DNA of 37,167 nucleotides, taken from positions 1 to 37,167 of the forward strand of contig JAJYOM010000001.1 of NCBI GenBank assembly GCA_021796175.1, written 5' to 3'. Positions within the stretch are counted from its first letter, which is position 1; each line of letters starts with the position of its first letter. Position numbers and translations under genes: made by a program. The notes below the pieces were generated by a model. It was not told the origin of the DNA, ran no database searches, and saw nothing but the letters and a program-made list of their open reading frames with translations. Source of the stretch: Thermoplasmata archaeon (lineage in GTDB: Archaea; Thermoplasmatota; Thermoplasmata; Sysuiplasmatales; Sysuiplasmataceae). Shown here piece after piece: positions 1-22,794 of this stretch.

Positions 1-507
1 TTCCGAACTGGTACTTCAGCTGAAAAGTCATCTGGTTTTGCCAAAAGGATTTCAGAGAAGTTTGGTCTTAATACGGTGTTTTCCACCCCGACCGGGGAAC
101 TTGGGAATTTTGATATACTTGTCACTGCCACGACATCCAAGGAACCAGTAATAGCGGACAGGCAGGTTCCAGCAGACTGCCATATCAATGCTATTGGTGC
201 GAACAGAATCGCGGCTTCGGAAATTGAGTCTCAGACATTCTCATCTGCGAAAACAGTTGTTGTCGACTCGATAGATCAGGCGATGATTGAATCAGGCGAC
301 CTGGTAAAGTCAATTGAGTCGGGAGCGATCAAGAAGGACTTCGTCAACGAGGCATGGGAGGTGGTTGGCGGAAGGATAAAGCATAATCCGGACGCCACAA
401 CAGACAGGACCGTATTCAAGTCACTGGGCATAGGTCTCGAGGACATAGTCACTGCAAGATATGTGTACGAAAAAGCACTGAAAGAGGGCATTGGCAGGGA
501 GGTCTGA
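1..507 (+). CDS. Ornithine cyclodeaminase / mu-crystallin family protein (archaeal alanine-dehydrogenase-like), C-terminal part; 5' end outside window
   Basis: Frame 1 is open from nt 1, so the track start at 76 is internal. The C-terminal sequence (CHINAIGANR...TVVVDS...DRTVFKSLGIGLEDIVTARYVYEKA) is typical of the OCD/mu-crystallin family. Stop TGA at 505-507. Confidence 0.75.
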   Translation, partial: FRTGTSAEKSSGFAKRISEKFGLNTVFSTPTGELGNFDILVTATTSKEPVIADRQVPADCHINAIGANRIAASEIESQTFSSAKTVVVDSIDQAMIESGDLVKSIESGAIKKDFVNEAWEVVGGRIKHNPDATTDRTVFKSLGIGLEDIVTARYVYEKALKEGIGREV

Positions 508-595
508 CCACACCTGACAGAAAGCGCATCAGAACCCTTTCCGTTCAGGTTATGACAAAATTGAAGCTCAGAAGCTGAATTGTTTTGCGCTTCGA

Positions 596-3500
596 ATGTG
601 GACTCAATTGAGTCCGAACTGGCAGGCGGCAATGACAATGACAGGCAGTGTAGAATTCAGATTTGGTGATGTCGCGGATGTAGTGGAGAAGGCATATGGT
701 GATGCTGAATCAGGGAAGCTGCTTTTCGTACTTTCTGACTCGGTCGCTGTTTCTCAGGCGAAAGAGATGCTCCTCAAAAGCAGGGAGGTGGTTGACGGGG
801 GTCCGTTCCTAACATTCGAGGACATAGAAAACAGGATAATGCTCAGCGCCGCCTGCATCAGGCCCTTGTTAATTCCAGATTATGTAAGAAGGGTAATTGC
901 CTCGGAAATTGTGGGAGAGATGGCTGGAAGACACAGGGACAGATTCCATCTTGAGCGTCAGTTCTCCTCGGTTCTGCTTGAAGAATTCGATTCGGTGTGG
1001 CCCTCAGTTATCCACGCAGGCTCTGCGGTTGAAAAAATGCTGAAGGGAGTCGCTCAAAATGAATCCGAGAAGAGGAGGTACTCAACCATACTTGAGTTCG
1101 CAGCACTTTATCAAAGTCGCATGTCTGCACTCAGTAACAGCGGCATCTACGACAGGGTAATACTGGCACATGAGGCCGCCACCCATGCATCGGCACTGAG
1201 AAATCAGGGAGTTGAGAGGGTGATGGTTGTAGGGATGGTCTTTGCAGACGGCGTACTTCTGGATCTTCTGAAAGCAATGTCAGAAAGCATCAGTGTAACA
1301 ATTGTATTGATGCCATCCGACCGAGGCAGGAAATCAGTTCAGCTCATGATGAGAAGGCTGGGAGCGGACGGATTCGGGACAGACAAAGGTGCAGGTGATG
1401 CAAGGGCATCAAGCCTGGGAATATTCGGTGCGCCGGACAGGAGAAGGGAGCTCAGAGAGGTAGCGAGGCGCATTCTGCAGGAAATAAATGATAAAACGCT
1501 TTCACTGGGCGACTTCGCCGTGGTCGCCAGATCCATTTCGGAATATGACGATATTGCGAGGGAAGTTTTCAGTGAATATGGCATTGCACTGGAGGGCGGC
1601 GGCAGGAAGAGGCTGCGGGACACCAGGATGTATTCATTCCTTAGAAAAATACTAGATCTGATCGCAGGCGATATCACAAAGTCCAAGTTAATGAGCCTGC
1701 TCGAGCACGACTTCTTCCCAGTTGCCAACAGCAGACTGGGAGAGCTGGCAGTTTCCGTTGCGCATCTGCCCGAATTGATAGACATTGAAACCGGAGAATC
1801 GCCGCTTGGAGATATCAGCTTGCCATGGGGCGAGACTCTAATTTCCTGGCTGAAAAAGTCTCATATGAGGGCCGCTTCACCTATGAGACTGGAGGAGTGG
1901 GTAGGATTTGCCCTTGAACTCATTTCCGGTGCATCCACAGAACTGCTTGCAGATGAGGAATACCTGGCAAATGGAGAATTCATCAGATCGCTTATTGAAG
2001 TGTCATCGGCGTCTGCAGCATACAGGACCGCTTTGCCTGAGATGAAGCTCGATCTCCGCAGTTTCATTGAGATTCTTGAGGATTTTGCGTATGATAAGAC
2101 TTATGCGGCGGGTGAGGAGGGACAGGGACTTCTGTTCACGGATGCCGGTCTTCTGTATTTCAGAAAATTCGCTCACATTTTCGCAGTTGGTATGAGTGAG
2201 GAGGTCTTCCCGTTCAGGCAAAGAGACGGTATGTTCCTGAGGACAACAATGGTAGATTCAATCTCGAGGATGACATCGGCAGCGAGGACATCTACCGATG
2301 CTGTCGACTCCATCGAAGGACATATTTTTGATTCCATACTGGACAGCTCAGCTGCAGTGACATTCTCATACGTCTACAGCGATGAAAGGGGAAGACGGCT
2401 GCTGCCGTCGACCTTTGTGCTGAACACACTCGAGAAGTGCATGGGACGCAGCCGATTGCTCGAAAGGATAGAGGAGAGAAACCTCGATTTTTCTGCATTT
2501 TATCCGGAAGACGGAGCAGTATGGTCAGTGCACGAGCTGGACAGGCTTCGGGCATCATCAGTCTCGGGGGAGGGGGCCATTATTGACGAGAGTGGAGAGA
2601 ACGGAGCAGTAAAAGCTGAATTCACCGATGTAGTTGAGAGGGGGCGTATCGCCGATGCTGATCCGCTCGAGTGGCGTATTCCTCCCGAAAAGTTGATGAA
2701 ACTGGTAGGTGACAGAACGCTCTCGGCCACCGATCTGTCAGAATATGCAAAATGCCCTTTCAGGTATGTTGCGACCAGAATACTCTCGGCTGTGCCCTCA
2801 ATGCCGCCCATGAATCCGCTTGACAGGGGAGCTCAAATGCACGAGATACTGAAGCGCTTCTACGAGCAGCATGGGCTGGAATACTTGCGGTGCAAGCCAT
2901 TAAATGAAGTGCAGGCTGAGATGGAGAGATGCACGGATGAATACTTCGTCTCTAAATACGGCAGCACATCCTCAATGGGACTTATGTTCTCCATACATGT
3001 GGCGGATATCAAGTCAGCACTCCTTGAATTCATTGGCAGGGATGCCGGAGACGAGACGCTCATGAAAGGAGAATTGGTAGGGCTGGAGCAGAGGTTTGGC
3101 TACTCAGACCAGAAGGAGTTCTTGATCGGCGGACACAGATTCCGCGGGATCATCGACAGGGTAGAGACAGTGGACATAGAGAATGGGAACCTCCTGGTAT
3201 ATGACTACAAATCCGGAAACCCTGACAACCTCACAAGGAAGTACTTCAGGGCGGATGGTCCGCTGCTTGATTTCGGCGTTCCGCTCTATGCACTTTACCT
3301 GAATGATGTTGAAAATAAAAAACTGGCTGGCGCTTTCTACTATATGCTTCTCAAGGCAGATGACAGGCCCGACAGGGCAGGGATCGCAAGGGAGGAGGCA
3401 CTTGAGAACCTCCCAGGCGTTGACAGGAGAAAGCGGTCCTACTTTTCAATAAAACCTGGTCAGGAGTTTGATGAGGAAATCAGCAGACTCAGGGAGGCAG

Positions 3501-3613
3501 TTTGTGAAGTTTCGGACAGTATCACAAGCGGCATATTCAGGGTGGAGCCAAGAGAAGGTGAGTGTGAATACTGCCAGCATTTTGCAATATGCAGGTACGG
3601 TGGTCAGGTGTAA
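596..3613 (+). CDS. AddB/RexB-like PD-(D/E)XK nuclease subunit with helicase-like but Walker-A-less N-terminal region and C-terminal Cys4 (Fe-S) signature
   Basis: 1005-aa ORF with no GxGKT motif seen. C-terminal RecB-type nuclease motifs GIIDRVE...LLVYDYKSG. One Cys codon at 2753-2755 plus CEYCQHFAIC (CxxCx5C, 3563-3592). The stop overlaps the next start as TAATG. The start could also be ATG 632 or 638. Confidence 0.7.
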   Translation: MWTQLSPNWQAAMTMTGSVEFRFGDVADVVEKAYGDAESGKLLFVLSDSVAVSQAKEMLLKSREVVDGGPFLTFEDIENRIMLSAACIRPLLIPDYVRRVIASEIVGEMAGRHRDRFHLERQFSSVLLEEFDSVWPSVIHAGSAVEKMLKGVAQNESEKRRYSTILEFAALYQSRMSALSNSGIYDRVILAHEAATHASALRNQGVERVMVVGMVFADGVLLDLLKAMSESISVTIVLMPSDRGRKSVQLMMRRLGADGFGTDKGAGDARASSLGIFGAPDRRRELREVARRILQEINDKTLSLGDFAVVARSISEYDDIAREVFSEYGIALEGGGRKRLRDTRMYSFLRKILDLIAGDITKSKLMSLLEHDFFPVANSRLGELAVSVAHLPELIDIETGESPLGDISLPWGETLISWLKKSHMRAASPMRLEEWVGFALELISGASTELLADEEYLANGEFIRSLIEVSSASAAYRTALPEMKLDLRSFIEILEDFAYDKTYAAGEEGQGLLFTDAGLLYFRKFAHIFAVGMSEEVFPFRQRDGMFLRTTMVDSISRMTSAARTSTDAVDSIEGHIFDSILDSSAAVTFSYVYSDERGRRLLPSTFVLNTLEKCMGRSRLLERIEERNLDFSAFYPEDGAVWSVHELDRLRASSVSGEGAIIDESGENGAVKAEFTDVVERGRIADADPLEWRIPPEKLMKLVGDRTLSATDLSEYAKCPFRYVATRILSAVPSMPPMNPLDRGAQMHEILKRFYEQHGLEYLRCKPLNEVQAEMERCTDEYFVSKYGSTSSMGLMFSIHVADIKSALLEFIGRDAGDETLMKGELVGLEQRFGYSDQKEFLIGGHRFRGIIDRVETVDIENGNLLVYDYKSGNPDNLTRKYFRADGPLLDFGVPLYALYLNDVENKKLAGAFYYMLLKADDRPDRAGIAREEALENLPGVDRRKRSYFSIKPGQEFDEEISRLREAVCEVSDSITSGIFRVEPREGECEYCQHFAICRYGGQV

Positions 3614-6600
3614 TGGAAGAGCATGGGAAATGCGGGCTCACGGATGAGCAGCTTGCCGTCGTTGAAGCAATAACTGCTGGCAAAATGGTCCTCGCAAAAG
3701 CAGGGGCTGGAAGCGGCAAGACGAAGACTCTTGTGGAGGCATATGCACGACTTGTCGAAAAGGCGAAGGATGCGGCAAACCCATTCGACAGAATACTGGC
3801 GATCACATTCACCAATGAGGCCGCTTACAAACTGAAGAAGGCAGTGTTCGACAGAACAGACAGCGATGTCAGGGCGTTGTTAACAGACAACATCTCAACT
3901 ATACACTCTTTCTGCAATTCTGTGCTTTCCGCACATCTTGTTGAGCTATCCATCAAACCTTCATACGTCATAGCGGACGAGGGCAGTGTGACTGAAGCGG
4001 CATTTGGCATCATCGACAGGATCGCATCTGCCGCCTACGGTGCTGATGAGGAGCTTAGGCGCCTCATTGCAGCGTACGGCTATGATGCAATCGGCCGGTC
4101 GGGTTTCAGGCAGGCACTTTACGGTATTTACTCTGCCATGAGAATGCAAGGAATCAGGGAAAGGGAGCTGGAGAGCCTGCTGGCAATCGGGTCCGGCAAG
4201 CTGCTTGAATTCACCTCTTCCGAGTCTGTCCTGCAGAAGGACGTGCCGATTGACAATGCAACACGTGATTTTGTTGGCAGGGCTGCAGGTACCTTCGGCA
4301 GATATCTGATACGCTTCTGGAGGGAGTTTGAAAATTACAAAAAACTGGAAGGTATGCTGACCTTCGACGACGTGCTTTACTACACATACCAGCTGCTCTC
4401 AGACCACGATTATATACGTGATTTCTACAGGAAGGAATTCGATTACATTCTGGTTGATGAATTCCAGGACACGGACAGGCTGCAATATGAAATCATAACC
4501 ATGATTTCCGATGGGAACAGGCTCGCGTTCGTAGGCGATCAGAAGCAGTCGATCTACGAGTGGAGAAACGCCGATCCAGCTATTATCAACAGCGTGGAAA
4601 GGGAGATAACATCCAGCGGAAGGGGAATATCGCTGGAAATGTCAGACAATTTCAGGAGCACTCCGCAGCTCATCTCGTTTTTCAATCTGGTATTTGCCAG
4701 GGTGTTTGAGAAAGGAAGCATAAGTTACACCGCCATGAGGCATGCGAACAGCTCGATGACAGACCTGGATGAACCTGCAGTGAGGATCATGCTCCCCGGT
4801 GGAGCGAACATAGGCGAAAGAAGGGAAAGGGAGGCTTCGCTGATTTGCGAGGAGGCCAGGAGGCTTGTTTCATCCGACATTCATGTAGAGGGTGAGGAAA
4901 ACGGACAGCTCAGACCTCTGGCGCTCAGGGACATGGCAATACTCTTCCGATCAAGGACGCCTGTGGAAATATATGCAAGGGCGCTCAGAGAAAACGGCAT
5001 TCCTTTCATCCATGTGCAGAGCGAGTCCTTCTTCGAAAAGAGGGAGGTGATTGATATCATGAATTACCTGAACCATCTAGCAGACCCGGCTGACAGATTC
5101 TACACGTTTGCTTCGCTCAGATCGCCGCTCTTCGGTTTGAGCGACGAGACTCTGATTTCACTGTCTGCAAACAGGTTTGATGTTGTCAAAACAGCAGGCG
5201 AGGCTAATGGCAGGGGCAGGGAGAAACTGCTGCTGTTTGCCTCAATTGATGAAGAGTGTTCAAGGAACAGGAATGCGTTTGCACACAGGATGCTTTCCGT
5301 CGCAATAGAAAAGACAAGAATCGATCTTGTCTACCTGTCAGCAAGAGGCGGAAAGCAGGCGTACGCGAATATACTCAAGCTCCTTGACATGATAAGGTCC
5401 ATGGAAAAGGACGGACCCGTGGGCCTGCTGGAGGCAGTCAGGTCATTGAACAGAATGGCTGAAGAGGGAACAGGAGAGTCGGAATATCCGCTCAATGATG
5501 AGAGAAGCGATGCAATAAGGTTAATGACTGTGCATGCCAGCAAGGGACTCGAATTCCCTGTGGTTTTTGTTGCAGACAGCTCACGGGAAAACAGGAATGG
5601 AAAGTCAGACAGTTTCTACCATCCTGAACTTGGTGTAGTTCCCGGTGTTCCCAGGAAGGGAAGGGAAACAACTAGGGATGGTGTGAGGGCTGTAAACAGC
5701 GCAGCATCCATCAGAAGGAATGAGAGCGCGCAGCAGGAGGACAGGAGGATCTTCTATGTCTCTCTCACAAGGGCAAGACAACTCCTGTACCTGTCACAAT
5801 TCGAGTCAAGGAAGAAGAACGATCCCAGCTGGAATGGGACGATAAACTCAATCATTCCGCTTAACCCGGGCGGCAGGGTGCTGCAGCTGACACCCGATTG
5901 CAGCGTCCTGTTCATCAGGCCCGGATCACAGAAGCAGGCTCGTGGCGCCATGACAGGAAGAGTTCGCATTAAGCCTGTGGTCAATACACTTCCCGCTCGA
6001 CTGGTGCGGCAGGAAGGAATTAGGACAATCGCGACTGAGCTAGCTGATTTCATGGTCTGCCCTCTCAGAAAGAAACTGGGGAAGGCTGCTCCTTCCGCCA
6101 GTGGCATCAGGGACAGAATAATCGCGGCAGAAAGGGGCAACGCTGTTCATTCCCTGCTCGAGGACTATAACTATGTTACAGGAGTATTTCCCTTCAGTCC
6201 TGCGCTGGCGGACACCGCCGGAGATGAAATCAGGAAACTTGCAAGTGGATTCATCAAATCAGTTTACGGTGAAATCGTTCACTCCGCAATTTTATCCGGG
6301 AAACTCAGGAGGGAGTTTCCATTCACGATGAAGAGGGGAGCTCATACGATCTCAGGCAAGATTGACCTTGTGGCCGAAGAGGGAGGGAATGTCTGTATTG
6401 TCGACTACAAGACGGGAGACATATCGAGGCATACACCCGAATATACGAACCAGCTGATGCTCTACGCAATTATGCTCAGGGAGCTGGGCGGGAAGAACAG
6501 ATTCAGGCTTGTAAACTTCGCGGTGGACAATCCGTCGCTGACGAGGGATTTTTCTGTCGGGAAGGAGGAGCTGGACTCGTTTGGAATGAGACTTGATGCC

Positions 6601-6738
6601 GCACTTGCAGATATGGTCAAAGGGGTAGAGGGAGCAAGTCCTTCTCCTGAAAACTGCGGCGGCTGCGACTTCAAATCAACATGCGAATTTGCTGACCCAC
6701 CTGAAAGAAAGAGGGCGGGGAACATGGTTAGTCTGTAA
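3613..6738 (+). CDS. AddA-like UvrD/Rep-family SF1 helicase fused to a RecB-type nuclease domain (also carrying a Cys4 signature)
   Basis: Helicase motifs: Walker A AGAGSGKTKT, motif II ILVDEFQDT, VGDQKQSIYEWRNA, DNFRS, VHASKGLEFPVVFV, FYVSLTRARQLLYL. C-terminal nuclease motifs GKIDLV...CIVDYKTG...NQLMLY. Cys at 6058-6060 plus CGGCDFKSTC (6655-6684). I prefer ATG 3613 (TAATG coupling) over the in-frame ATG 3589 given in the track. Confidence 0.85.
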   Translation: MEEHGKCGLTDEQLAVVEAITAGKMVLAKAGAGSGKTKTLVEAYARLVEKAKDAANPFDRILAITFTNEAAYKLKKAVFDRTDSDVRALLTDNISTIHSFCNSVLSAHLVELSIKPSYVIADEGSVTEAAFGIIDRIASAAYGADEELRRLIAAYGYDAIGRSGFRQALYGIYSAMRMQGIRERELESLLAIGSGKLLEFTSSESVLQKDVPIDNATRDFVGRAAGTFGRYLIRFWREFENYKKLEGMLTFDDVLYYTYQLLSDHDYIRDFYRKEFDYILVDEFQDTDRLQYEIITMISDGNRLAFVGDQKQSIYEWRNADPAIINSVEREITSSGRGISLEMSDNFRSTPQLISFFNLVFARVFEKGSISYTAMRHANSSMTDLDEPAVRIMLPGGANIGERREREASLICEEARRLVSSDIHVEGEENGQLRPLALRDMAILFRSRTPVEIYARALRENGIPFIHVQSESFFEKREVIDIMNYLNHLADPADRFYTFASLRSPLFGLSDETLISLSANRFDVVKTAGEANGRGREKLLLFASIDEECSRNRNAFAHRMLSVAIEKTRIDLVYLSARGGKQAYANILKLLDMIRSMEKDGPVGLLEAVRSLNRMAEEGTGESEYPLNDERSDAIRLMTVHASKGLEFPVVFVADSSRENRNGKSDSFYHPELGVVPGVPRKGRETTRDGVRAVNSAASIRRNESAQQEDRRIFYVSLTRARQLLYLSQFESRKKNDPSWNGTINSIIPLNPGGRVLQLTPDCSVLFIRPGSQKQARGAMTGRVRIKPVVNTLPARLVRQEGIRTIATELADFMVCPLRKKLGKAAPSASGIRDRIIAAERGNAVHSLLEDYNYVTGVFPFSPALADTAGDEIRKLASGFIKSVYGEIVHSAILSGKLRREFPFTMKRGAHTISGKIDLVAEEGGNVCIVDYKTGDISRHTPEYTNQLMLYAIMLRELGGKNRFRLVNFAVDNPSLTRDFSVGKEELDSFGMRLDAALADMVKGVEGASPSPENCGGCDFKSTCEFADPPERKRAGNMVSL

Positions 6739-6800
6739 TGCACGCAGCACGCGAGTCATACCATAATAAATAAGGCAGTGACTGTGGATATTAGAGTAAT

Positions 6801-7547
6801 GTGTTGGAAAGCATGCTAGATGGAGGGAATGCATCTTCGTCATGTATTGTGCTGGACAGCGTGAAGAAGGCTTACGGGAACACACCTGCACTGGACGGCC
6901 TCAGCATCGACATCCCACAGGGGGAGAAGTTCGCACTCATAGGGCCTAACGGCGCCGGTAAGAGCACCACGCTCAAGCTGCTTGTAGGATTGCTGAGGCC
7001 GGACTCTGGCACTGTGTCTATAATGGGATACAATCCCACATCAATCCAGGCAAAGAAACTGATAGGTTACCTGCCCGAGGATGCATCACCGTACGCGACA
7101 CTAAGCGTCCGTGAGAACCTGGAATACATTGGCGCGTTGAGGGGAGTGGATGATGCAGGTGAAAGGATTGATTTGCTGCTCGGCGAGCTGTCACTCTCCG
7201 AATACGAAAGGTCAAAGGTAGGAAAACTGTCCAGGGGAAACAGGCAGAAGCTGGCTGTTGCACTTGCACTTATACACAGACCGAAAGTGATACTTCTGGA
7301 TGAGCCGCTCAACTACCTTGACATACCTACACAGGAGAGGGTTGTCAGCATGCTCGAACAGCTCAATGCGACAGTGCTTGTGTCAACGCACATAATGTCA
7401 ATTGCGGAGCGGCTGACTGACGGTGCAATAGTCATATCAAGAGGAAGAAAGGTCTGGAGCGGGAGCATGAAGGAGCTTCAGGCGCAGGCGAGAGGTACCG
7501 AATCAATAGAAAGTGTTGTCGTGAGGCTGATGACAGGTGCTGAGTAG
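6801..7547 (+). CDS. ABC transporter ATP-binding protein (ABC-2 exporter type)
   Basis: Walker [13 protein letters not shown], signature [14 protein letters not shown], Walker B ILLDEP. GTG 6801 or ATG 6813 could be the start. The 3' end overlaps the next ORF by 11 nt. Confidence 0.9.
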
Positions 7548-8949
7548 ACTTGTCAAGTTCCTGATAATCACAAGGTTTTCCAGGGGTCTCGTCGCGTTCA
7601 TACTCGTTTTCCTGGGCTATTCCGTCATACTGGGAACAGTCTACAACAATTTCGAGACGACATCCAACCCTTTTTTCAATTACTACCTTGTGGGCATACT
7701 TGTATTCCTGACGGTCTTCATGGTGTTTCTGGGCGGTGTCGCTCTGATGAAATCAGATCTGGACTATCTCTTCACACTACCGCTCAACAGGGGCGAGCTT
7801 GTGGTGAGCCTGTACCTGGCGCAGTTTATGGCAACAGGTGTGTCTTTCCTGTTCGCCGTCGGTTATGTGCTGCCGTACGTATCTGGTGGACTCGCAGTCA
7901 AGGCGGTGATGGCAGGCGACATTGCGCTGCTTGCATTGCTTGTCACATCACTGAGCATAATCTCATTCAGACTCTCACAGAAGCAGAAGGCGTTTCTTGC
8001 ATCTGCACTGGGTATCTGGGCACTTCTGCCGATATTTGGATTCAATTACTCCTACACGTCCATCTTCATGGGCAATACCGTCGCCGGAACGATCATAATC
8101 GCTGCGCTGGACGTGCCATTCAACTTCTACGCGGTAAGGCAGCTGTTTGACATTGAGATAGGTTTCCTCAAGACCACTGCAAGAAGAGCTGGTTCTGAGT
8201 TCAGGAGGCCCGAAAGCTTCTCCGGCCTCAGCCCGGTAAGAGCGATATTTGCACATCATCTTTCCGAGCTGAGCCTCACCGGCAGGTTCGGCATTGGAGG
8301 CAGCGTGAGCGTGAGGATTTCGAGAATAAGGCTCTATTACCTTCTCATACCCGCACTCTTCCTCGGGGGGATTTATCTTTATCTTGCACTGAAAGAGGGC
8401 AATTCCGGGCCACTGAACGTCGCAATGCTGCTCGCCTCTCTATATATTGGTATATTCACTTCGATACTCTTCGCGCAGGAAGTGCTGTCGCACGAAAGGG
8501 CCTGGCTTGCATTTGTCTCCCTGCCGGTGGAGGTCTACTGGAGGAGTCTTGCTGTCTCCAAGATACTCCAGACCTACGTCATGATGGTGCCGTTCATCGG
8601 TGCAGACATTGTCCTCCTGGCGCTTGGTTTTCATGGAGCGCTAAACACACTGCTATTCATGGGAATAGTTGTGCCGCTGTCCCCTGTGGTGACGATATAC
8701 TTCGGTTCCAGGCTTTCTGTCAATCAGATAGTCGACACTGAGATAATGTCAGGGCAGCAGAACCTGAGACAGATGCTCTCGCTTGGACCGATACTCATTC
8801 TTGCAATAATGTCAATCATTTCAATCGTCTCGCTGATTGGAGCAGTGGTCGTTGTGTTCATAGCGGTTGCTTCAGACTGCTACCTCGTCTTCAGCAGCAC
8901 TGTTTCTGAGAACATGGTTTTCGGACTGACTGAAAAAGGCTTTGTCTGA
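7537..8949 (+). CDS. Polytopic membrane protein, probable internally duplicated permease partner of the upstream ABC ATPase
   Basis: 470 aa with roughly 10-12 hydrophobic segments. It overlaps the ATPase stop. Each half has a similar loop motif ([18 protein letters not shown] and [20 protein letters not shown]). I recognise no specific family beyond putative ABC exporter permease. Confidence 0.6.
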
Positions 8950-8966
8950 GGATAATATCCTCAGAC
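8944..8966. terminator. Perfect 23-nt palindrome (11-bp arms, 1-nt centre) between two convergent ABC operons; candidate bidirectional terminator hairpin or protein-binding site
   Basis: GTCTGAGGATA-A-TATCCTCAGAC. The left arm contains the TGA stop (8947-8949) of the + gene. The - gene stop is at 8981-8983. No clear oligo-T tract follows on either strand. Confidence 0.4.
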
Positions 8967-8980
8967 ACTCAACTTCAGTC

Positions 8981-9916
8981 TCACCTTGAGAGGTATCTCC
9001 ATGACAGGAAGATGCCGAAACCTGAGAACAGAGCGGCGAATGCAACAAGGAAGAGGAAGTCAAAGCCGAGTGGCGCAAATCCCGGCGAACCCAGAAGCAG
9101 CTGCCTGCCCGCATCAGTTGCATAGCTCACTGGGTTGAGCTTTGTCACAACCTGGAGCCAAGCGGGCATCAACTTTGAGGGGAAGAGCGCATTGCTGGCA
9201 AACAGCAGCGGAAGGTTCAGAAGGTTCATGATGGCCATCTGGCTCTGCCAGTCAGTAGACCTGAGCGCCAGCATGAGGAAGAGCGCTGACAGTCCCATCG
9301 CCATCAGGAACATGGCGGCGAAGGTACCAGCGAGGCCGGCAACAGTCAACTTGCTTGTGTCCATCCCCAGAAGCACTGCCACTATCAGGACTATCGCCGC
9401 CTGGGCCAGTGAGCGTATCACGCTGGAGAGTACCTTTCCCATTATTATGGAGCCCCTCGCAACCGGCGTGCTGAGCAGCTTGTCGAGAAAACCGAATCTC
9501 CTGTCCCAGACAATCGACATACCGCTGAACATCGCAGTGAACAGTATGATGAATGATAGCATGCCGACAGCCAGGAATGAGAAGTAATCTGTGGTGCCGA
9601 ATGTGCTCAGCATTGCCTGTTTCGCGATGAGATCAAGTGTCGACTTGGGTATATTCAGTCCGGGTATGTTGAATGAAGTACCGGTAAAAAGTGCACCGAA
9701 GTTCATCGCCTTTCCGAACAGTCCAAGCCAGATGATCGGCTGTATTATGGACAGGAAGAGCAGCACCGGCACCTTATACCATTTCTTGAGTTCCCTGTTC
9801 GTCAGTGCCCAGAGGCCATGCAACATCCCTCTGTTTATGGGGACATCTCGCTCTTCCTCCACCAGATATCTTCTAGTCACATTGTTTGTGTTGGCAGTTT
9901 GCACCATTGAAATCAC
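8981..9916 (-). CDS. ABC-2 type transporter permease (DrrB/NodJ-like)
   Basis: 311 aa, about 6 TM segments, with typical ABC-2 layout. The GTG start overlaps the upstream ATPase stop (GTGA at 9913-9916). Confidence 0.85.
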   Translation of the reverse strand: MISMVQTANTNNVTRRYLVEEERDVPINRGMLHGLWALTNRELKKWYKVPVLLFLSIIQPIIWLGLFGKAMNFGALFTGTSFNIPGLNIPKSTLDLIAKQAMLSTFGTTDYFSFLAVGMLSFIILFTAMFSGMSIVWDRRFGFLDKLLSTPVARGSIIMGKVLSSVIRSLAQAAIVLIVAVLLGMDTSKLTVAGLAGTFAAMFLMAMGLSALFLMLALRSTDWQSQMAIMNLLNLPLLFASNALFPSKLMPAWLQVVTKLNPVSYATDAGRQLLLGSPGFAPLGFDFLFLVAFAALFSGFGIFLSWRYLSR

Positions 9917-10956
9917 GCCCTGGCCCTCCGCACAGTTCTCTGCTGTGCCATCACATGCTGGTTGCCTGACTCTTCGTCCCTCAGTTTGTGTCCTGTGAAT
10001 TCAAGATAAACCTCGTCCAGCGTGGGCTTAGTCAGCGATATCCTGTCCACGTGGTAACCTGCTGACCTGACAGCATCCATAATTGCAGGAGCCGTCTCCT
10101 CCCCCATATCGGCCTTAATCCTGTAATGGTCATCCTCCTTCCTTACCGAAATCACCTTGTCCACTCCGGATATCAGGGAAGTAAGATCCACATCTTTCTC
10201 CTTGATACCGAGCTCAATTGCATCTCCGCCCACGCTTGCCTTCAGTTCCGAAGTCGTGCCGATCCTCACTATCTTCCCGTTGTCGATTATTCCTACACGA
10301 TCACAAAGGCCATCCGCCTCCTCAAGGTAGTGTGTTGTCACGAACAGCGTCATCCTGTACTCCTCCTTCAGAAGCCGGATGTATCGCCAGACAGCAGTTC
10401 TGGTCTGTACATCAAGTCCGAGTGTAGGTTCGTCCAGGAACAGGACTCTCGGGTGATTGACAAGCCCACAGGCGAGCTCAAGTCTGCGCCTCATCCCGCC
10501 TGAATATGTGGATACTTTCCGGCCGGATGCATCCTGCAGCTCCACCAGTGCAAGCAGTTCGTCCGCCCTCTTCCTTCCGATTTCCTTCGGAATTCCGTAC
10601 AGGTTGGCAAAGAGCATTATGTTCTCTATGCCTGTCATGTCCTCATCAGCTGTGTATTCCTGCGGAACCACACCGACAGACCATCTGACCTGCTGAGGAC
10701 TCTTTCTGAGATCATGGCCGCAAATTACCGCATCTCCGGATGTTGGCTTGAGCAGCGTTGTAAGCATCTTTATTGTTGTTGTCTTGCCTGCACCGTTGGG
10801 ACCAAGAAAACCGAATATCTCCCCTTCGTAGACTTTGAAGGATATCGAATCCACAGCTCTCAGTTTGTTGTCAAAAACCCTCGTCAGTTTTTCCACGTCT
10901 ATTATTGACGTCCTTCCATTCTCCCCTGATGTTTGAGCATCTATTGACTGTTCCAT
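9913..10956 (-). CDS. ABC transporter ATP-binding protein (DrrA/daunorubicin-resistance-like)
   Basis: Walker A GPNGAGKTTTIKML, Q-loop VGVVPQ, signature YSGGMRRRLELACGL, Walker B LFLDEPTLGLD, plus a C-terminal regulatory-type extension. Confidence 0.9.
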   Translation of the reverse strand: MEQSIDAQTSGENGRTSIIDVEKLTRVFDNKLRAVDSISFKVYEGEIFGFLGPNGAGKTTTIKMLTTLLKPTSGDAVICGHDLRKSPQQVRWSVGVVPQEYTADEDMTGIENIMLFANLYGIPKEIGRKRADELLALVELQDASGRKVSTYSGGMRRRLELACGLVNHPRVLFLDEPTLGLDVQTRTAVWRYIRLLKEEYRMTLFVTTHYLEEADGLCDRVGIIDNGKIVRIGTTSELKASVGGDAIELGIKEKDVDLTSLISGVDKVISVRKEDDHYRIKADMGEETAPAIMDAVRSAGYHVDRISLTKPTLDEVYLEFTGHKLRDEESGNQHVMAQQRTVRRARA

Positions 10957-16394: not shown

Positions 16395-19300
16395 ATGTAT
16401 CCCTACTGCCTGTACCCCGCCATTTCTGGCAACCAGATTGCCTTCGTTTCAGAGGATGACCTGTGGACCTACAGCCTCGAGGACAGGACTGTCATGAGGC
16501 TTGTATCCAACATTGGCGTTATCAGCAGACCGTCATTTTCACGTGACGGCAAATGGCTTGCGTTCAGATCGCTCAGACGTGGCGGTCCTCCGGTGACTGA
16601 GGTCTTTGTGATACCTTCAGACGGAGGTTTGTTGAAGCAGCTGACGTATCTTGGCTCAGCCAACACAGATATTGCAGGCTGGACTCCTGATGGCAGGATT
16701 GTGATAAGCACCGATGTGGAAACACCATTTCGGGCTGAGACTGAACTCTACACAGTGGGCCTGGAAGGCGGATATCTGGAACCTATGAACCTTGGTCCGG
16801 CCTCATCTATTCTGTACGCAGACCATACGCTGTTTCTGGGCAGGAACACCCACGAACTGATGAACTGGAAGAGATACCGTGGAGGAACAAGGGGGAAGAT
16901 CTGGGTATCCGGCGATGGAAAAACATTCTCGAAGTTCCTTGAGCTGGAAACAGGAGTAACCTCTCCGATGATTGCAGAAGGGAGGTTCTATTTCATTTCC
17001 GATCACGAGGGAACTGGCAACATCTACTCAGTCGACTTTCATGGCGGCGACATGAAGAGGCACACCGATTTCAATGATTACTATGTCAGGAACGCAAGCA
17101 GCGACGGCAAGAAGATTGTGTTCCATTCCGGAGGGGATCTCTACATATTGGACATAGCGACTTCAAAGGTGTCCAAGCTGGAACTTGAACTGCCGAATTC
17201 CGGATTGAAGAGAAATGAGAGATTCGTTGAAAACGGCAAGTTCATGACCGAATTTGCGATTGACAGGGAGGGTGACATGGTCGCGTTCGTTATACGCGGC
17301 AGGCTGTTCGCAATGGGAAACTGGGAAGGCCCTGTTTTTCCGGTAGAATTCGGAGGACCGGGGAGGGCAAGGCTCTGCAGCTTCCTTGGCGATGGCGACA
17401 GAATGATCGGCGTCACCGATTTCGGAGGCAGCGATTCAATCTTTGTTCACACTCTCCGAAATGGAAATAGTGAACTTGTGAAACACGATTTCGGACTTAT
17501 AGAGGCACTCACCCCGGAACCCGGCGGAAAGAGGGCGCTGGCGGCCAACAACAGGTTCGAGCTATTCCTCATAGACCTGGAAAAGAGAAGTGTAACGCAG
17601 ATCGACAGAAGCGAGGCGGGTATTATCAGCGATTTGACCTGGCACCCGGACGGCAGGCATGCTGCGTATACGTTTCCAACAATGAGCAGAAGGAGTGTGG
17701 TTGTCATCGCCGACACCGAGTCAGGCAACAAGAGGAATGTCACCACGGAGGGTTCAATTGACACCAGTCCTGTATTTGACCCGAAAGGCAAATATCTTTA
17801 CTACCTCTCTCAGCGGACGCTTGATCCGGTTTATGACAAATTCGTCTTCGACCTCGGATATCCTGCCGCAGCAAAGCCTTATGCAGTGCGGCTGAGGAGA
17901 GACTTACCAAGCCTTTTCAGACCAGTCCCGAAAATGCTGAGGGAAAAAGAAAGCGAGGAGAAGGGAGTGGAGATGGATGGAATGGAGGAGAGATCTGAGC
18001 CATTTCCTGTACAGGCGGGAGACTATACCAAGATACTTGCGGCCGAAGACCGTGTACTTTTCCTCAAGTTTCCTGTAGAAGGATCGATGAAATACTGGTC
18101 CCTGTCAAAGACAACCAGGGAAAACGGGGAACTGGATGGATACAATCTGGATGAGAGGAAGACTTACACAGCCGTTTCTGGAATATCCGATGCTCAACTG
18201 AGCGGCAATGCCAAAAGGATCCTTGTGACAGGGGATGCACGGTTCAGGATAATCGATTCGACTAAAGCCGATGAGAAACTCGCTCCAGGCGAGGAGCCGT
18301 CCAAGGCGACCGGTTACATAGACACTGAGCGAATAAAGTGCCTTATTGAACCGGAAAAGGAGTGGAAGCAGATGTTCAGGGAGGCATGGGTTCTTATGAA
18401 GGAGAATTACTGGAACCCGAACCGGGTTGGAAAGGAGTGGGATGCTGTTTTCACAAGATACGGCAAGCTGCTCGATCGCCTGGGCTCTCGCCGGGAACTG
18501 TCTGATCTGATTTCTGAGGTTCAGGGAGAGCTGGGAACTTCACATGCATATGAGATAGGAGCCGATGTATCACAGGACAACAGCTACAGGGTCGGGAGAC
18601 TTGGTGCGAAACTGAAGTTCAATGGCACAGGATATGAGATTCTGAAAATATACAGGGGCGACCCTTCAAATGAGGATGAGAAGTCGCCGCTTCTGGCCTG
18701 TTCGGTTCCACTGGCCGTGGGAGATGTCATAACGTCCATTGCGGGCAGAAGACTCTCAGAAACAATGACTCCTGAAAGGGCCCTTCTCAACATACTCCAT
18801 GAAGACGTTCTCCTGGTTGTCAGAACCAGGGATGGGGAGAAGGTTGCATCTGTGATGACACTCGCGGATGACGGCAGTCTGAGATACAGGAGCTGGGTTG
18901 AGGAAAAGAGAAAATTTGTCCACGAACGGACAGAAGGAAGAGTTGGGTACATACATGTGCCTGACATGGGCCCCTCAGGGTTCAACGAGTTCCACAGAAT
19001 GCTTGCAGAGGAGTCGTCGAAGGAAGGGCTCATAGTTGATGTGCGCCACAACGGCGGAGGTCACGTTTCGGAGCTCCTGCTTGAGAAGCTCGTCAGAAGA
19101 ATAATAGGCTTCGACAGACCAAGAAAGGGCAGGTTGGAACGGTATCCCCAGTATTCGGTAAATGGACCAATAGTGGCAGTGACTGACGAAAATGCCGGAT
19201 CGGACGGAGACATCTTCAGCCATTCGTTCAAACTGTATAGAATCGGACCGCTGATAGGAACCAGAACCTGGGGAGGAGTTGTTGGTATTGATCCAAGGCA

Positions 19301-19526
19301 TGATCTTGTTGATGGCACTGTAATCACTCAGCCGCAATTTGCATTCTGGTTCAAAGATGTGGGCTGGGGGGTTGAGAATTATGGAACCGATCCGACAATT
19401 CAGGTGGAATTTCCACCGCACGATCACACTCTGGGCAATGATCCGCAGCTTCAGAGGGCAATCGACGAGTGTCTTTCGCTGATTGCGAACAACGGCCGTT
19501 TCCTGGAGGAGCCGAAGCTGCCCTGA
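16395..19526 (+). CDS. tri: Tricorn protease
   Basis: 1043 aa, collinear with T. acidophilum tricorn: N-terminus YPAISGNQIAFVSEDDLW, YRGGTRGKIW, GTSHAYE (catalytic His codon 18543-18545), AGSDGDIFS (catalytic Ser codon 19200-19202), GTRTWGGVVGI. Confidence 0.93.
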   Translation: MYPYCLYPAISGNQIAFVSEDDLWTYSLEDRTVMRLVSNIGVISRPSFSRDGKWLAFRSLRRGGPPVTEVFVIPSDGGLLKQLTYLGSANTDIAGWTPDGRIVISTDVETPFRAETELYTVGLEGGYLEPMNLGPASSILYADHTLFLGRNTHELMNWKRYRGGTRGKIWVSGDGKTFSKFLELETGVTSPMIAEGRFYFISDHEGTGNIYSVDFHGGDMKRHTDFNDYYVRNASSDGKKIVFHSGGDLYILDIATSKVSKLELELPNSGLKRNERFVENGKFMTEFAIDREGDMVAFVIRGRLFAMGNWEGPVFPVEFGGPGRARLCSFLGDGDRMIGVTDFGGSDSIFVHTLRNGNSELVKHDFGLIEALTPEPGGKRALAANNRFELFLIDLEKRSVTQIDRSEAGIISDLTWHPDGRHAAYTFPTMSRRSVVVIADTESGNKRNVTTEGSIDTSPVFDPKGKYLYYLSQRTLDPVYDKFVFDLGYPAAAKPYAVRLRRDLPSLFRPVPKMLREKESEEKGVEMDGMEERSEPFPVQAGDYTKILAAEDRVLFLKFPVEGSMKYWSLSKTTRENGELDGYNLDERKTYTAVSGISDAQLSGNAKRILVTGDARFRIIDSTKADEKLAPGEEPSKATGYIDTERIKCLIEPEKEWKQMFREAWVLMKENYWNPNRVGKEWDAVFTRYGKLLDRLGSRRELSDLISEVQGELGTSHAYEIGADVSQDNSYRVGRLGAKLKFNGTGYEILKIYRGDPSNEDEKSPLLACSVPLAVGDVITSIAGRRLSETMTPERALLNILHEDVLLVVRTRDGEKVASVMTLADDGSLRYRSWVEEKRKFVHERTEGRVGYIHVPDMGPSGFNEFHRMLAEESSKEGLIVDVRHNGGGHVSELLLEKLVRRIIGFDRPRKGRLERYPQYSVNGPIVAVTDENAGSDGDIFSHSFKLYRIGPLIGTRTWGGVVGIDPRHDLVDGTVITQPQFAFWFKDVGWGVENYGTDPTIQVEFPPHDHTLGNDPQLQRAIDECLSLIANNGRFLEEPKLP

Positions 19527-22590: not shown

Positions 22591-22658
22591 ACTACGGCAG
22601 GCCACCTGGATTACAGGCGCTGTGCAGCGAGCCAATCTTTCCATCATATGACCGGAAA

Positions 22659-22794
22659 ATAGCGCCATAGCGCCAAGTCTAAGACTCTGCATTTGGACAC
22701 GGCTAGTTATTGACTTGGCCCGTGAATTTGGATTTTATTAACAACTGATAACTGATTCATCAACGTTTGACGCAGCTGTCATGCATGTCATGCA
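22659..22794. repeat. Cluster of three adjacent-copy micro-duplications upstream of the Rieske/cyt b operon
   Basis: ATAGCGCC x2 (22659-22674), AACTGAT x2 (22743-22756), TGTCATGCA x2 (22777-22794). Confidence 0.5.

What the first reader, a model, noticed from the sequence alone, without database searches (positions are those of the whole stretch)
596..6738. Bacterial-style AddAB/AdnAB-like helicase-nuclease pair in an archaeal setting, with Cys4 iron-staple signatures in both subunits
Seen: ORF 3613-6738 has the full SF1/UvrD motif set (AGAGSGKTKT, ILVDEFQDT, VGDQKQSIYEWRNA, DNFRS, VHASKGLEFPVVFV, FYVSLTRARQLLYL). A RecB-type PD-(D/E)XK module follows it (GKIDLV...CIVDYKTG...NQLMLY). ORF 596-3613 has no recognisable Walker A but ends in the same module (GIIDRVE...LVYDYKSG). 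Each protein has one upstream Cys (codons 2753 and 6058) plus a terminal CxxCx5C (CEYCQHFAIC 3563-3592; CGGCDFKSTC 6655-6684). The genes are coupled by a TAATG overlap (3611-3615). Established: an inactive-helicase nuclease subunit plus a UvrD-nuclease subunit defines bacterial AddAB. In the Bacillus paradigm the 4Fe-4S iron staple belongs to AddB. Archaeal end resection is normally ascribed to Mre11-Rad50/HerA-NurA. Inference: this is either a horizontally acquired bacterial DSB-resection machine or an uncharacterised archaeal variant with one motor and two Fe-S nucleases. Such a variant could also act against foreign DNA.
Basis: partly seen in the sequence, partly recalled or inferred. Interest (0 to 1): 0.7.

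Follow-up and report, generated by a model that had tools for sequence, protein, structure and literature searches.

The report
Archaeal AddAB-type helicase-nuclease gene pair
Two overlapping genes in a Thermoplasmata-like archaeon encode a bacterial-type AddAB enzyme that trims broken DNA ends; both of its nuclease domains carry four conserved cysteines, but many bacterial relatives do too, so it is an uncharacterised variant of a well-known machine, not a new kind of system.

Summary
ORF 596-3613 is an AddB-type subunit: a helicase-like fold with no ATP-binding motif, followed by a RecB nuclease domain with Cys4. ORF 3613-6738 is an AddA-type subunit: a complete UvrD-type motor followed by a RecB nuclease domain with Cys4. 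The genes overlap in TAATG.

Sequence profiles, PDB sequence searches and confident AlphaFold models (pLDDT 88) match Bacillus AddB and AddA over their full length and in the right pairing.

The contig is archaeal (Thermoplasmatota-like). The pair sits in the same housekeeping neighbourhood (peroxiredoxin, OCD/mu-crystallin, addB, addA, ABC transporter) in relatives whose AddA is only 31-55% identical. This points to long vertical inheritance after an old bacterial acquisition. It is not a mobile or defence island.

The four Cys are the only invariant Cys in either nuclease domain. However, the Cys4 set on the AddA subunit is not special to archaea. About a third to a half of the closest bacterial AddA homologues have it, and the four Cys are gained or lost together. 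Loss of Walker A in AddB is also common. Methanoculleus and Haloarcula carry classic AddAB, and transfer of AddAB into archaea has been proposed before.

Verdict: a real, probably functional single-motor, dual-nuclease end-resection enzyme, a "double iron-staple" variant of AddAB. Interest is moderate to low.

The parts
596..3613 (+). addB-like gene (1005 aa as the ORF is drawn; the real start is probably ATG 632 or 638)
   Evidence: ORF. Pfam PDDEXK_1 1.3e-30 and NCBIfam addB_Gpos 9e-20. PDB sequence best hit is AddB 3u44_B. AlphaFold model pLDDT 88.2, with Foldseek top hit AddB 3u4q_B at E 1e-32 over the full length. Start codon doubt.
644..2695 (+). AddB-like N-terminal helicase-like region (about aa 17-700). 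It has no Walker A, and motif II is degenerate (VVGMVFAD where bacterial AddB has DGF..Q). Predicted to be catalytically dead and a possible DNA-sequence (Chi-like) scanning domain.
   Evidence: No GxxxxGK[ST] in any of the 11 clade members. The fold aligns with the AddB, AdnA and RecC helicase-like domains and with UvrD/PcrA. The only sequence-level AddB match lies here, at residues 269-381.
2717..3595 (+). AddB-like RecB-family PD-(D/E)XK nuclease domain (aa 708-1000). Catalytic D854 (nt 3155-3157), D870 (3203-3205) and K872 (3209-3211). Predicted nuclease for the 5'-ended strand.
   Evidence: Pfam PDDEXK_1 covers 708-1000. D854 and R855 are invariant, and D870, Y871, K872 and H749 are at least 90% conserved in 53 sequences.
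2753..2755 (+). AddB-like Cys720, the first ligand of the predicted iron staple
   Evidence: Invariant in 53/53 AddB-type sequences.
3563..3592 (+). AddB-like CxxCx5C (C990, C993, C999: CEYCQHFAIC), ligands 2-4 of the predicted iron staple
   Evidence: Invariant in 53/53. Aligns with the B. subtilis AddB C-terminal CTYCAFKSVC.
3611..3615 (+). TAATG stop/start overlap coupling addB-like to addA-like
   Evidence: In orthologous loci L082-L085 the called gene pairs overlap by 4-49 nt.
3613..6738 (+). addA-like gene (1041 aa)
   Evidence: ORF. UvrD-helicase 2.8e-55, UvrD_C 1.2e-31, PDDEXK_1 1e-16. addA_Gpos 1.6e-92. PDB best hit AddA 3u44_A at 2.6e-56. AlphaFold pLDDT 88.6, Foldseek top hit AddA 4ceh_A at 1.3e-44, TM 0.62.
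3637..5805 (+). AddA-like SF1A (UvrD/PcrA-type) motor, aa 9-731. Walker A GAGSGKT is nt 3703-3723 and motif II DEFQDTD is nt 4456-4476. Motifs III (VGDQKQSIYEWRNA), IV (NFRS), V (TVHASKGLEFPVVF) and VI (YVSLTRAR) are all intact.
   Evidence: Motif residues are invariant in the 10-sequence clade alignment and in the 55-sequence alignment with bacterial homologues.
6034..6687 (+). AddA-like RecB-family nuclease domain (aa 808-1025). D918 (nt 6364-6366), D931 (6403-6405), K933 (6409-6411), Q947/Y951. Predicted nuclease for the 3'-ended strand.
   Evidence: Pfam PDDEXK_1 covers 808-1025. Catalytic residues are invariant. The domain profile best matches the AdnB nuclease at 6e-8, then Cas4-family proteins.
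6058..6060 (+). AddA-like Cys816, the first ligand of a predicted second iron staple
   Evidence: Invariant in 10/10 clade members. Present in 62/64 AddA homologues that have the C-terminal Cys triad, against 15/138 that lack it.
6655..6684 (+). AddA-like CxxCx5C (C1015, C1018, C1024: CGGCDFKSTC)
   Evidence: Invariant in 10/10 clade members. The same spacing occurs in 57/120 of the best AddA homologues.

Best explanation
The two genes encode a heterodimeric AddAB-type helicase-nuclease that processes double-stranded DNA ends.

By analogy with Bacillus AddAB, the complex binds a broken duplex end. The AddA-like subunit is the only ATP-driven motor. It tracks 3'-to-5' along one strand and unwinds the duplex. 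Its C-terminal RecB nuclease cuts the 3'-ended strand. The RecB nuclease of the AddB-like subunit cuts the 5'-ended strand. The AddB-like N-terminal region is a dead helicase fold that probably scans the passing 3' strand for a regulatory (Chi-like) sequence. The product would be a 3' single-stranded tail for the archaeal recombinase RadA.

Each nuclease domain is probably pinned by its own Fe-S cluster, held by one Cys before the domain and a CxxCx5C after it (an 'iron staple'). The complex would then carry two clusters, not the single AddB cluster of the Bacillus and mycobacterial paradigms.

The pair is of bacterial ancestry but has been a stable, vertically inherited chromosomal operon in a Thermoplasmatota lineage that includes Sysuiplasma-like archaea.

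Shown here: domain composition, intact catalytic and motor motifs, loss of ATP-binding motifs in AddB, full-length fold matches, Cys conservation and co-variation, operon coupling, conserved synteny, archaeal host. Inferred: heterodimer formation, strand assignment of the nucleases, Fe-S occupancy and cluster type, Chi regulation, hand-off to RadA.
For: - Profiles and domains.
- Best solved relatives by sequence are AddA (2.6e-56) and AddB (9.5e-8).
- Models are confident (pLDDT 88.2 and 88.6; pTM 0.70 and 0.71). AddB-like matches AddB chains at E 1e-32 (TM 0.55, about 1150 aligned columns), ahead of AdnA and RecC. AddA-like matches AddA chains at E 1.3e-44 (TM 0.62), ahead of RecB.
- Motor motifs and nuclease D...DxK residues are invariant.
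- Cys4 is invariant in both subunits while the other Cys vary.
- The four Cys of AddA are gained or lost as a unit across 202 homologues.
- The AddB-like clade lacks Walker A (11/11).
- The genes overlap, and the addB-then-addA order is the same in bacterial loci.
- Archaeal host: L44e, diphthamide synthase and tricorn protease are on the same contig. The best named tricorn relative is a Thermoplasmataceae archaeon at 57% identity. The best genome hit for AddA is Ca. Sysuiplasma superficiale, with the same OCD-addB-addA order.
- Synteny is conserved in L082-L085 although AddA identity falls to 31%.
- In a neighbour-joining tree the 15 Thermoplasmatota-type AddA form one clade nested among bacterial sequences.
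- Function of the paradigm: PMC3321194, PMC3378879.
Against: - Both proteins score far below NCBI's curated equivalog cut-offs: addA_Gpos 311 against 707.65 bits, addB_Gpos 69.9 against 903.7 bits. They belong to a divergent lineage for which no biochemistry exists.
- No tool here can show complex formation, Fe-S binding, nuclease polarity or a Chi sequence.
- The motif III glutamine (QxxxY) of bacterial AddB nucleases is not matched in the archaeal AddB-like clade (DFGVPLYALY). This may alter nuclease activity.
- Some Cas4 relatives with the same Cys pattern bind [2Fe-2S], not [4Fe-4S] (PMC4176176).
- The tree is a neighbour-joining tree without support values.
Confidence: 0.85

Rival explanations
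1. The pair is mainly an anti-foreign-DNA (defence) nuclease-helicase, like the UvrD-Cas4-like fusions found next to restriction-modification or Dcm-Vsr genes. Its main job would be to destroy linear invader DNA, not to repair the chromosome.
For: UvrD-Cas4-like fusions occur in bacteria and mesophilic archaea and are linked to defence contexts (PMC5704561). The AddA-like protein hits GajB and DRT helicase models in PADLOC and weakly hits Cas4 (TIGR00372, 34.8 bits). From established knowledge, RecBCD/AddAB enzymes do degrade phage DNA as a side activity.
Against: The PADLOC hits are generic UvrD-core matches of at most 180 bits, weaker than addA_Gpos at 311 bits. The AddB-like protein has no PADLOC hit. 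No restriction, methylase, CRISPR or mobile-element genes lie in the window or in the related loci, and the neighbours are housekeeping genes. The position is syntenic across relatives down to 31% identity, unlike defence islands. Viral contigs hold no full-length relatives, only helicase cores. The fusions described in PMC5704561 are stand-alone or in non-conserved contexts; no AddB partner is described.
Confidence: 0.08
2. It is an AdnAB-type enzyme, in which both subunits bind or hydrolyse ATP and both contribute motor function.
For: AdnA is the second-best structural match for the AddB-like model (7sjr_A, E 1.5e-20). The AddA-like nuclease-domain profile best matches the AdnB nuclease.
Against: AdnA keeps Walker A and B motifs (PMC3321194). 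The AddB-like protein and all 10 clade relatives lack Walker A, and motif II is degenerate. AddB and AddA chains beat AdnA and AdnB by 12 or more orders of magnitude in Foldseek E-value.
Confidence: 0.03
3. The four Cys in one or both nuclease domains bind something other than a [4Fe-4S] cluster, such as [2Fe-2S] or Zn, or they form disulfides. 'Double iron staple' would then be the wrong description, although the enzyme would still be AddAB-like.
For: Pyrobaculum Cas4 Pcal_0546 has the same Cys arrangement and binds [2Fe-2S] (PMC4176176).
Against: The C-x(n)-C-x2-C-x5-C spacing is identical to that of AddB, Dna2 and Cas4 iron-staple domains, which were shown or reported to hold 4Fe-4S (PMC3378879, PMC7430649). 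The four Cys co-vary as a unit.
Confidence: 0.15
4. The genes are bacterial contamination or a very recent transfer and are not a functional part of the archaeal genome.
For: The nearest relatives outside the small clade are all bacterial.
Against: Archaeal marker genes flank the pair on the same 82-kb contig. GC content is uniform across the region, about 0.50-0.51. The same insertion point is found in six independent assemblies from different sources (ENA, NCBI, JGI, Logan), with 31-55% AddA identity. All catalytic residues are conserved.
Confidence: 0.02

Closest known systems
Bacillus subtilis AddAB (PDB 3U44/3U4Q/4CEH-4CEJ); NCBIfam TIGR02785 addA_Gpos and TIGR02773 addB_Gpos
   Same: Two-gene operon in the order addB then addA. 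AddA is a UvrD-type SF1A motor plus a C-terminal RecB nuclease. AddB is an inactivated helicase fold plus a RecB nuclease stapled by C-x(n)-CxxCx5C. It is the best sequence and fold match for both subunits. Single-motor, dual-nuclease logic.
   Different: The window's proteins are about 15% shorter (1041 and 1005 aa against 1232 and 1166). Aligned identity is only 15-20%, and scores are far below the equivalog cut-offs. The AddB-like subunit has no Walker A. The AddA-like nuclease also carries the Cys4 set, which Bacillus AddA is not reported to have (PMC3378879 places the Fe-S nuclease domain in AddB). The host is an archaeon whose recombinase would be RadA.
Uncharacterised bacterial AddAB pairs whose AddA has a C-terminal CxxCx5C (for example P0067, named 'Firmicutes bacterium' MAG, locus L086; P0013, locus L087; Blastocatellia L036)
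   Same: Same gene order and same domain set. Cys4 on the AddA nuclease. In L086 AddB also lacks Walker A. In the neighbour-joining tree, the 35-sequence clade that contains the archaeal clade is 83% Cys4-bearing overall and 70% (14/20) among its bacterial members.
   Different: Bacterial hosts, 25-30% identity to the window's AddA, and different neighbourhoods. None is experimentally characterised as far as the searchable literature shows.
Mycobacterial AdnAB (PDB 6PPJ/6PPR/6PPU/7SJR)
   Same: Heterodimeric motor-nuclease. AdnB is the lead 3'-5' motor with a RecB nuclease. AdnA is the AddB-like subunit with an Fe-S subdomain at the fork (PMC8789073). It is the second-best fold match for the AddB-like subunit.
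   Different: AdnA retains ATP-binding motifs (PMC3321194); here they are absent. Fe-S is reported only in AdnA, whereas here Cys4 is present in both subunits.
RecBCD (E. coli)
   Same: Same end-resection job. RecB is related to AddA and RecC to AddB in fold.
   Different: The window has no RecD-type second motor gene. RecC has no active nuclease and no Cys4, whereas the AddB-like subunit has both.
UvrD-Cas4-like fusion proteins of bacteria and mesophilic archaea (Hudaiberdiev et al. 2017, PMC5704561)
   Same: A UvrD SF1 helicase fused to a PF12705 nuclease with Cas4-type Cys. Present in mesophilic archaea.
   Different: Those proteins are described as stand-alone or next to type III R-M or Dcm-Vsr genes. 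Here the protein is translationally coupled to an AddB-type partner in a conserved housekeeping context. Whether the two groups overlap phylogenetically was not tested.
Archaeal Mre11-Rad50 / HerA-NurA end-resection system
   Same: Same presumed cellular task: making 3' tails at DNA breaks (PMC12977600).
   Different: Unrelated protein families and mechanism. Their presence or absence in this genome could not be checked.

Membership tests
AddAB, AddA subunit | N-terminal SF1A UvrD/PcrA-type helicase core with intact motifs Q, I, Ia, II, III, IV, V, VI | tested here: met
   Pfam UvrD-helicase 2.8e-55 and UvrD_C 1.2e-31. Motif residues are invariant in 10- and 55-sequence alignments.
AddAB, AddA subunit | C-terminal RecB-family PD-(D/E)XK nuclease with D...DxK and QxxxY | tested here: met
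   PDDEXK_1 1e-16 over residues 808-1025. D918, D931, K933 and Y951 are invariant, and Q947 is at least 90% conserved.
AddAB, AddA subunit | Overall fold closest to solved AddA | tested here: met
   Model pLDDT 88.6. Foldseek top four hits are AddA chains, E 1.3e-44 to 7.5e-40, TM 0.60-0.62. RecB follows at 4.7e-33.
AddAB, AddA subunit | Score above the curated equivalog cut-off (TIGR02785 at 707.65 bits; TIGR02784 at 860.75 bits) | tested here: not met
   311.1 and 234.4 bits. The protein is not a member of the Gram-positive or alphaproteobacterial equivalog families. It belongs to a separate AddA-type lineage.
AddAB, AddB subunit | N-terminal helicase-like (SF1) fold that is catalytically inactive | tested here: met
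   Model pLDDT 88.2. Full-length Foldseek match to AddB chains at E 1e-32, and also to UvrD/PcrA/Rep cores. No Walker A and a degenerate motif II.
AddAB, AddB subunit | C-terminal RecB nuclease spanned by four Cys (C-x(n)-C-x2-C-x5-C, the 'iron staple') | tested here: met
   PDDEXK_1 1.3e-30. C720, C990, C993 and C999 are invariant in 53/53 sequences. D854 is invariant, and D870 and K872 are at least 90% conserved. This is the sequence signature only.
AddAB, AddB subunit | Actual binding of a 4Fe-4S cluster that is needed for DNA-end binding | not testable with these tools
   Needs purified protein (UV-visible, EPR, Fe/S analysis, Cys mutants).
AddAB, AddB subunit | Score above the curated equivalog cut-off (TIGR02773 at 903.7 bits; TIGR02786 at 486.5 bits) | tested here: not met
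   69.9 and 18.7 bits.
AddAB holoenzyme | Adjacent, co-oriented addB-addA genes encoding a heterodimer | tested here: met
   TAATG overlap. The same order is seen in 5 archaeal orthologous loci and in most bacterial loci examined. Heterodimer formation itself was not tested.
AddAB holoenzyme | Chi-sequence recognition that attenuates 3'-strand cleavage | not testable with these tools
   Only about 43 kb of the genome is available, too little for an oligomer-skew search. Biochemistry is needed.
AdnAB | Both subunits keep ATP-binding (Walker A/B) motor-like domains | tested here: not met
   The AddB-like subunit and all clade relatives lack Walker A. AdnA retains these motifs (PMC3321194).
RecBCD | Third subunit RecD (SF1B motor), and a RecC without nuclease activity | tested here: not met
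   No third helicase gene flanks the pair in the window or in the orthologous loci. The AddB-like subunit has an intact nuclease triad.
Cas4 (CRISPR-associated) | Small stand-alone Cas4 protein above the TIGR00372 cut-off, located in a cas locus | tested here: not met
   34.8 bits against a cut-off of 65. No cas genes or repeats were seen in the neighbourhood.
Defence-associated UvrD-Cas4-like fusion (PMC5704561) | Stand-alone, or linked to type III R-M or Dcm-Vsr genes | tested here: not met
   The protein is coupled to an AddB-like gene in a conserved housekeeping neighbourhood. Phylogenetic relation to that clade was not tested.

The most novel reading that the evidence does not exclude
In this Thermoplasmatota lineage a bacterial-derived AddAB has been kept for a very long time as a main double-strand-break resection machine feeding the archaeal RadA recombinase. 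It may supplement or replace HerA-NurA. Its second Fe-S cluster, on the motor subunit's nuclease, would give a mode of DNA-end or 3'-strand handling that differs mechanistically from Bacillus AddAB. Because the Cys4 set is common in bacterial AddA too, this would define a large, overlooked 'double iron-staple' class of AddAB enzymes.
Probability: 0.25. Interest if true: 0.55.

Novelty: new variant of a known kind. Interest (0 to 1): 0.33.

Why it matters
If the biochemistry holds, three things follow.

1. At least one archaeal lineage has stably adopted the bacterial single-motor, dual-nuclease way of resecting DNA breaks. That raises the question of how it hands over to RadA and how it coexists with Mre11-Rad50/HerA-NurA.

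2. Iron-staple nuclease domains have been described as rare (PMC7430649), and in AddAB/AdnAB they are assigned only to the AddB/AdnA subunit. Here they also sit on the motor subunit in a sizeable fraction of AddA-type proteins. That offers natural with-and-without pairs for asking what the cluster does: structural staple, DNA-end sensor, or redox switch.

3. The finding does not reveal a new kind of system, and the annotation 'AddAB-type helicase-nuclease' is adequate for both genes.

Tried and rejected
- The single-protein scan of genome contigs with the AddA-like protein found nothing. The closest NCBI genomes (for example GCA_021835305.1) were therefore not returned with organism names.
- ARAGORN and Rfam found no RNA genes in the window that could help identify the organism.
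- PADLOC gave only generic UvrD-core hits for AddA-like and none for AddB-like, so a defence-system assignment was rejected.
- The viral contig scan gave only helicase-core matches ending by about residue 795, with no nuclease domain and no AddB partner. A mobile-element origin was rejected.
- Yeeles et al. 2009 (PMC2658068) and Cromie 2009 are not held, so they are cited only through papers that cite them.
- Searches for AddAB with Thermoplasma or haloarchaea gave no relevant paper. One hit was the word 'addable'.
- No held paper explicitly describes an iron staple on AddA. This is absence in a limited library, not proof of novelty.
- The AdnAB label and the RecBCD label were both considered and rejected (see membership tests).
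- A Chi-motif search was considered and not run, because about 43 kb of sequence is too little.

Full report
**1. Observation.** The window has two long, same-strand ORFs at 596-3613 (1005 aa) and 3589/3613-6738 (1041 aa from ATG 3613). The codon coordinates for the Cys residues are arithmetically correct. The stop of the first gene and the start of the second overlap as TAATG at 3611-3615. No Walker A motif exists in the first protein. GC content is even (0.50-0.51) across the region. The only correction concerns the first gene's start. Orthologues begin at the position of residue 13-16, and the structure model is disordered before residue 17. ATG 632 or 638 is therefore more likely than 596.

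**2. What the proteins are.**

The 3613-6738 product:
- It carries Pfam UvrD-helicase (2.8e-55), UvrD_C (1.2e-31) and PDDEXK_1 (1e-16).
- Its best NCBIfam model is AddA of Gram-positives (1.6e-92, 311 bits), ahead of alphaproteobacterial AddA, RecB, PcrA, Rep and UvrD.
- Its best solved relative by sequence is B. subtilis AddA (2.6e-56).

The 596-3613 product:
- It carries only PDDEXK_1 (1.3e-30, residues 708-1000).
- It has a local match to AddB of Gram-positives (9e-20, residues 269-381).
- Its only significant PDB sequence hit is B. subtilis AddB (9.5e-8), and the C-terminal CxxCx5C also aligns.

Both proteins fall well below NCBI's equivalog cut-offs. They are not members of the curated Gram-positive or alphaproteobacterial families. 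They belong to a divergent lineage.

AlphaFold2 models built on 53- and 55-sequence alignments are confident (pLDDT 88.2 and 88.6; pTM 0.70 and 0.71). Foldseek against the PDB gave these results:
- The AddB-like model matches AddB chains over the full length (E 1e-32, TM 0.55). AdnA (1.5e-20) and RecC (4e-20) follow.
- The AddA-like model matches AddA chains (E 1.3e-44, TM 0.62). RecB (4.7e-33) follows.

The two subunits therefore match the two AddAB subunits in the right pairing.

**3. Catalytic competence.** In the AddA-like clade alignment (10 sequences, 31-55% identity), the following are invariant:
- the Q motif;
- the conserved core residues of Walker A (GxGKT);
- TFTNE, DEFQDTD, GD.KQ.IY.WR.A, N.RS and the motif V and VI residues;
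- the nuclease residues H846, D918, D931, K933, Q947 and Y951.

Most of these remain invariant when 45 bacterial homologues are added.

In a 53-sequence AddB-type alignment, S605, C720, D854, R855, C990, C993 and C999 are invariant. H749, D870, Y871 and K872 are at least 90% conserved. All 11 members of the archaeal AddB-like clade lack Walker A, as do many bacterial AddBs in the same alignment. This is the single-motor, dual-nuclease layout of AddAB. It is not the layout of AdnAB, whose AdnA keeps Walker A and B (PMC3321194).

**4. The cysteines.** The AddA-like protein has 10 Cys and the AddB-like has 9. Only the four nuclease-domain Cys in each, plus C101 of the helicase HSFC motif, are invariant among orthologues. 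The spacing, C-x(n)-C-x2-C-x5-C, is that of the AddB, Dna2 and Cas4 iron staple (PMC3378879, PMC7430649).

In the paradigms the cluster is assigned to AddB (PMC3378879) and to AdnA (PMC8789073). A Cys4 set on the motor subunit therefore departs from the characterised enzymes. It is not peculiar to this archaeon, however:
- 57 of the 120 best AddA homologues, mostly bacterial, have a C-terminal CxxCx4-6C.
- In a 202-sequence alignment, 62 of 64 proteins with that tail also have Cys at the C816 column, against 15 of 138 without it. The four Cys come and go as a unit.
- Two bacterial examples were inspected (L086 and L087). Both are addB-addA pairs.

I found no paper in the held library that describes an iron staple on AddA. 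That library lacks the primary 2009 papers.

**5. Host and evolutionary history.** The window comes from an 82-kb metagenomic contig. It also carries ribosomal protein L44e, diphthamide synthase, a radical-SAM protein and tricorn protease. The tricorn protease's best named relative is from a Thermoplasmataceae archaeon (57% identity). The best species-level genome hit for AddA is Candidatus Sysuiplasma superficiale (35% identity, E 1e-157). That genome has the same OCD-addB-addA arrangement and Cys4 in both subunits.

Four further contigs from NCBI, ENA, JGI and Logan have AddA 51, 36, 34 and 31% identical to the window's. All place the pair directly after the AhpC/TSA and OCD/mu-crystallin genes. 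In L083-L085 the diphthamide synthase and radical-SAM genes also lie upstream. L082 and L085 share the downstream ABC transporter. Conserved position at such divergence indicates long vertical inheritance.

A neighbour-joining tree of 202 AddA-type proteins groups the 15 Thermoplasmatota-type sequences in one clade. That clade is nested among bacterial sequences, many of which bear Cys4. Methanoculleus and Haloarcula AddA lie elsewhere and lack the Cys tail. The tree has no support values and is only indicative. The picture is one old transfer from bacteria into this lineage, with independent transfers into other mesophilic archaea. This fits the earlier suggestion that addAB genes moved 'even into the archaea' (Cromie 2009, quoted in PMC2887965).

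An exhaustive HMMER search finds only 11 representatives of the AddB-like clade at E no higher than 1e-30. The next tier is bacterial AddB, at about 1e-24 and weaker. The clade is small and divergent.

**6. Context and rivals.** The rest of the window is housekeeping: ABC transporters, a PadR regulator, an aminotransferase, an alcohol dehydrogenase, tricorn protease, a PEP-mutase family protein, a cytochrome b complex and an Opp-type peptide transporter.
- There are no restriction, methylase, cas, integrase or transposase genes.
- PADLOC gives nothing for AddB-like and only generic UvrD-core hits for AddA-like.
- Viral contigs hold only helicase-core relatives.
- A dedicated defence role is therefore unsupported, although AddAB/RecBCD-type enzymes do degrade linear foreign DNA as a by-product of their normal activity (established knowledge).
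- Contamination is excluded by the flanking archaeal genes and the repeated synteny.

**7. Mechanism (inferred by homology).** The heterodimer binds a dsDNA end. The AddA-like SF1A motor translocates 3'-to-5' and unwinds. The AddA nuclease cuts the 3' strand and the AddB nuclease cuts the 5' strand. The dead helicase domain of AddB may scan for a Chi-like sequence. The product is a 3' tail for RadA. Two Fe-S clusters are predicted, one stapling each nuclease domain. What remains unverified:
- complex formation;
- metal content and cluster type;
- strand polarity of the two nucleases;
- any Chi sequence;
- the relationship to Mre11-Rad50/HerA-NurA, the usual archaeal resection system (PMC12977600), whose presence in this genome could not be checked.

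**8. Verdict.** The finding is real and correctly interpreted in its essentials. It is a divergent, archaeal, vertically inherited AddAB-type operon of the 'Cys4 in both subunits, no Walker A in AddB' sub-type. That sub-type is uncharacterised biochemically but widespread in bacterial sequence data. I class it as a new variant of a known kind, of moderate to low interest (0.33).

Noticed in passing
window 76-8949; L082, L083, L084, L085, L002: A conserved gene block recurs in distantly related Thermoplasmatota-type contigs: AhpC/TSA peroxiredoxin, OCD/mu-crystallin, addB, addA, then often an ABC ATPase plus a membrane protein of about 470 aa with no Pfam hit. The steady pairing of a peroxiredoxin with a break-repair operon may or may not be functional.
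   Followed up: partly
window 7537-8949 (+): A 470-aa polytopic membrane ORF with no Pfam hit. Its GTG start overlaps the end of the ABC ATPase gene 6801-7547. Equivalent Pfam-less genes of 467-470 aa follow the ABC ATPase in L082 and L085. It is probably the permease of an uncharacterised ABC system.
   Followed up: no
window 596-640: The addB-like start codon is uncertain. Orthologues align from residue 13-16, and the model is disordered over residues 1-16. ATG 632 or 638 may be the true start.
   Followed up: partly
L003 6372-13246 (Methanoculleus frigidifontis); L065 6785-13636 (Haloarcula onubensis): Both archaea carry addB-addA pairs in which AddA lacks the C-terminal Cys triad. Haloarcula AddB ends in CRYCDYRRAC. 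Methanoculleus AddB has Cys near its C terminus, but the CxxCx5C pattern was not matched by the search. These pairs look like separate acquisitions. In Haloarcula the addB-like gene is split into two overlapping ORFs (6785-8398 and 8260-10002), which suggests a frameshift or an assembly error.
   Followed up: partly
L086 3552-9216; L087 2834-9468: These are bacterial addB-addA pairs whose AddA has the Cys4 tail. The L086 AddB is short (819 aa) and lacks Walker A. The L087 AddB keeps Walker A and has a variant Cys tail (CGPGECDAADIC).
   Followed up: partly
window 22411-24988 (+): A 59-aa Cys-containing ORF (MKATFACKDIGMKCNFE...) resembles DUF1059-type small proteins; this comparison is from memory only and was not tested. 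It lies upstream of a TAT-signal protein (22928-23785) and a cytochrome b (23798-24988), so this is probably a small respiratory module. The surrounding 21-26 kb has dips in GC content (0.474-0.489).
   Followed up: no
window 16395-19526 (+): A full-length tricorn protease. It served here as a taxonomic marker: its best named relative is from a Thermoplasmataceae archaeon at 57% identity, and next come Marsarchaeota and Thermoprotei at about 48-50%.
   Followed up: partly
L083 12799-16021: In one related contig, the ABC transporter downstream of addA is replaced by two ATPase_2/DUF234 genes (archaeal ATPase family). The downstream edge of the syntenic block is variable.
   Followed up: no
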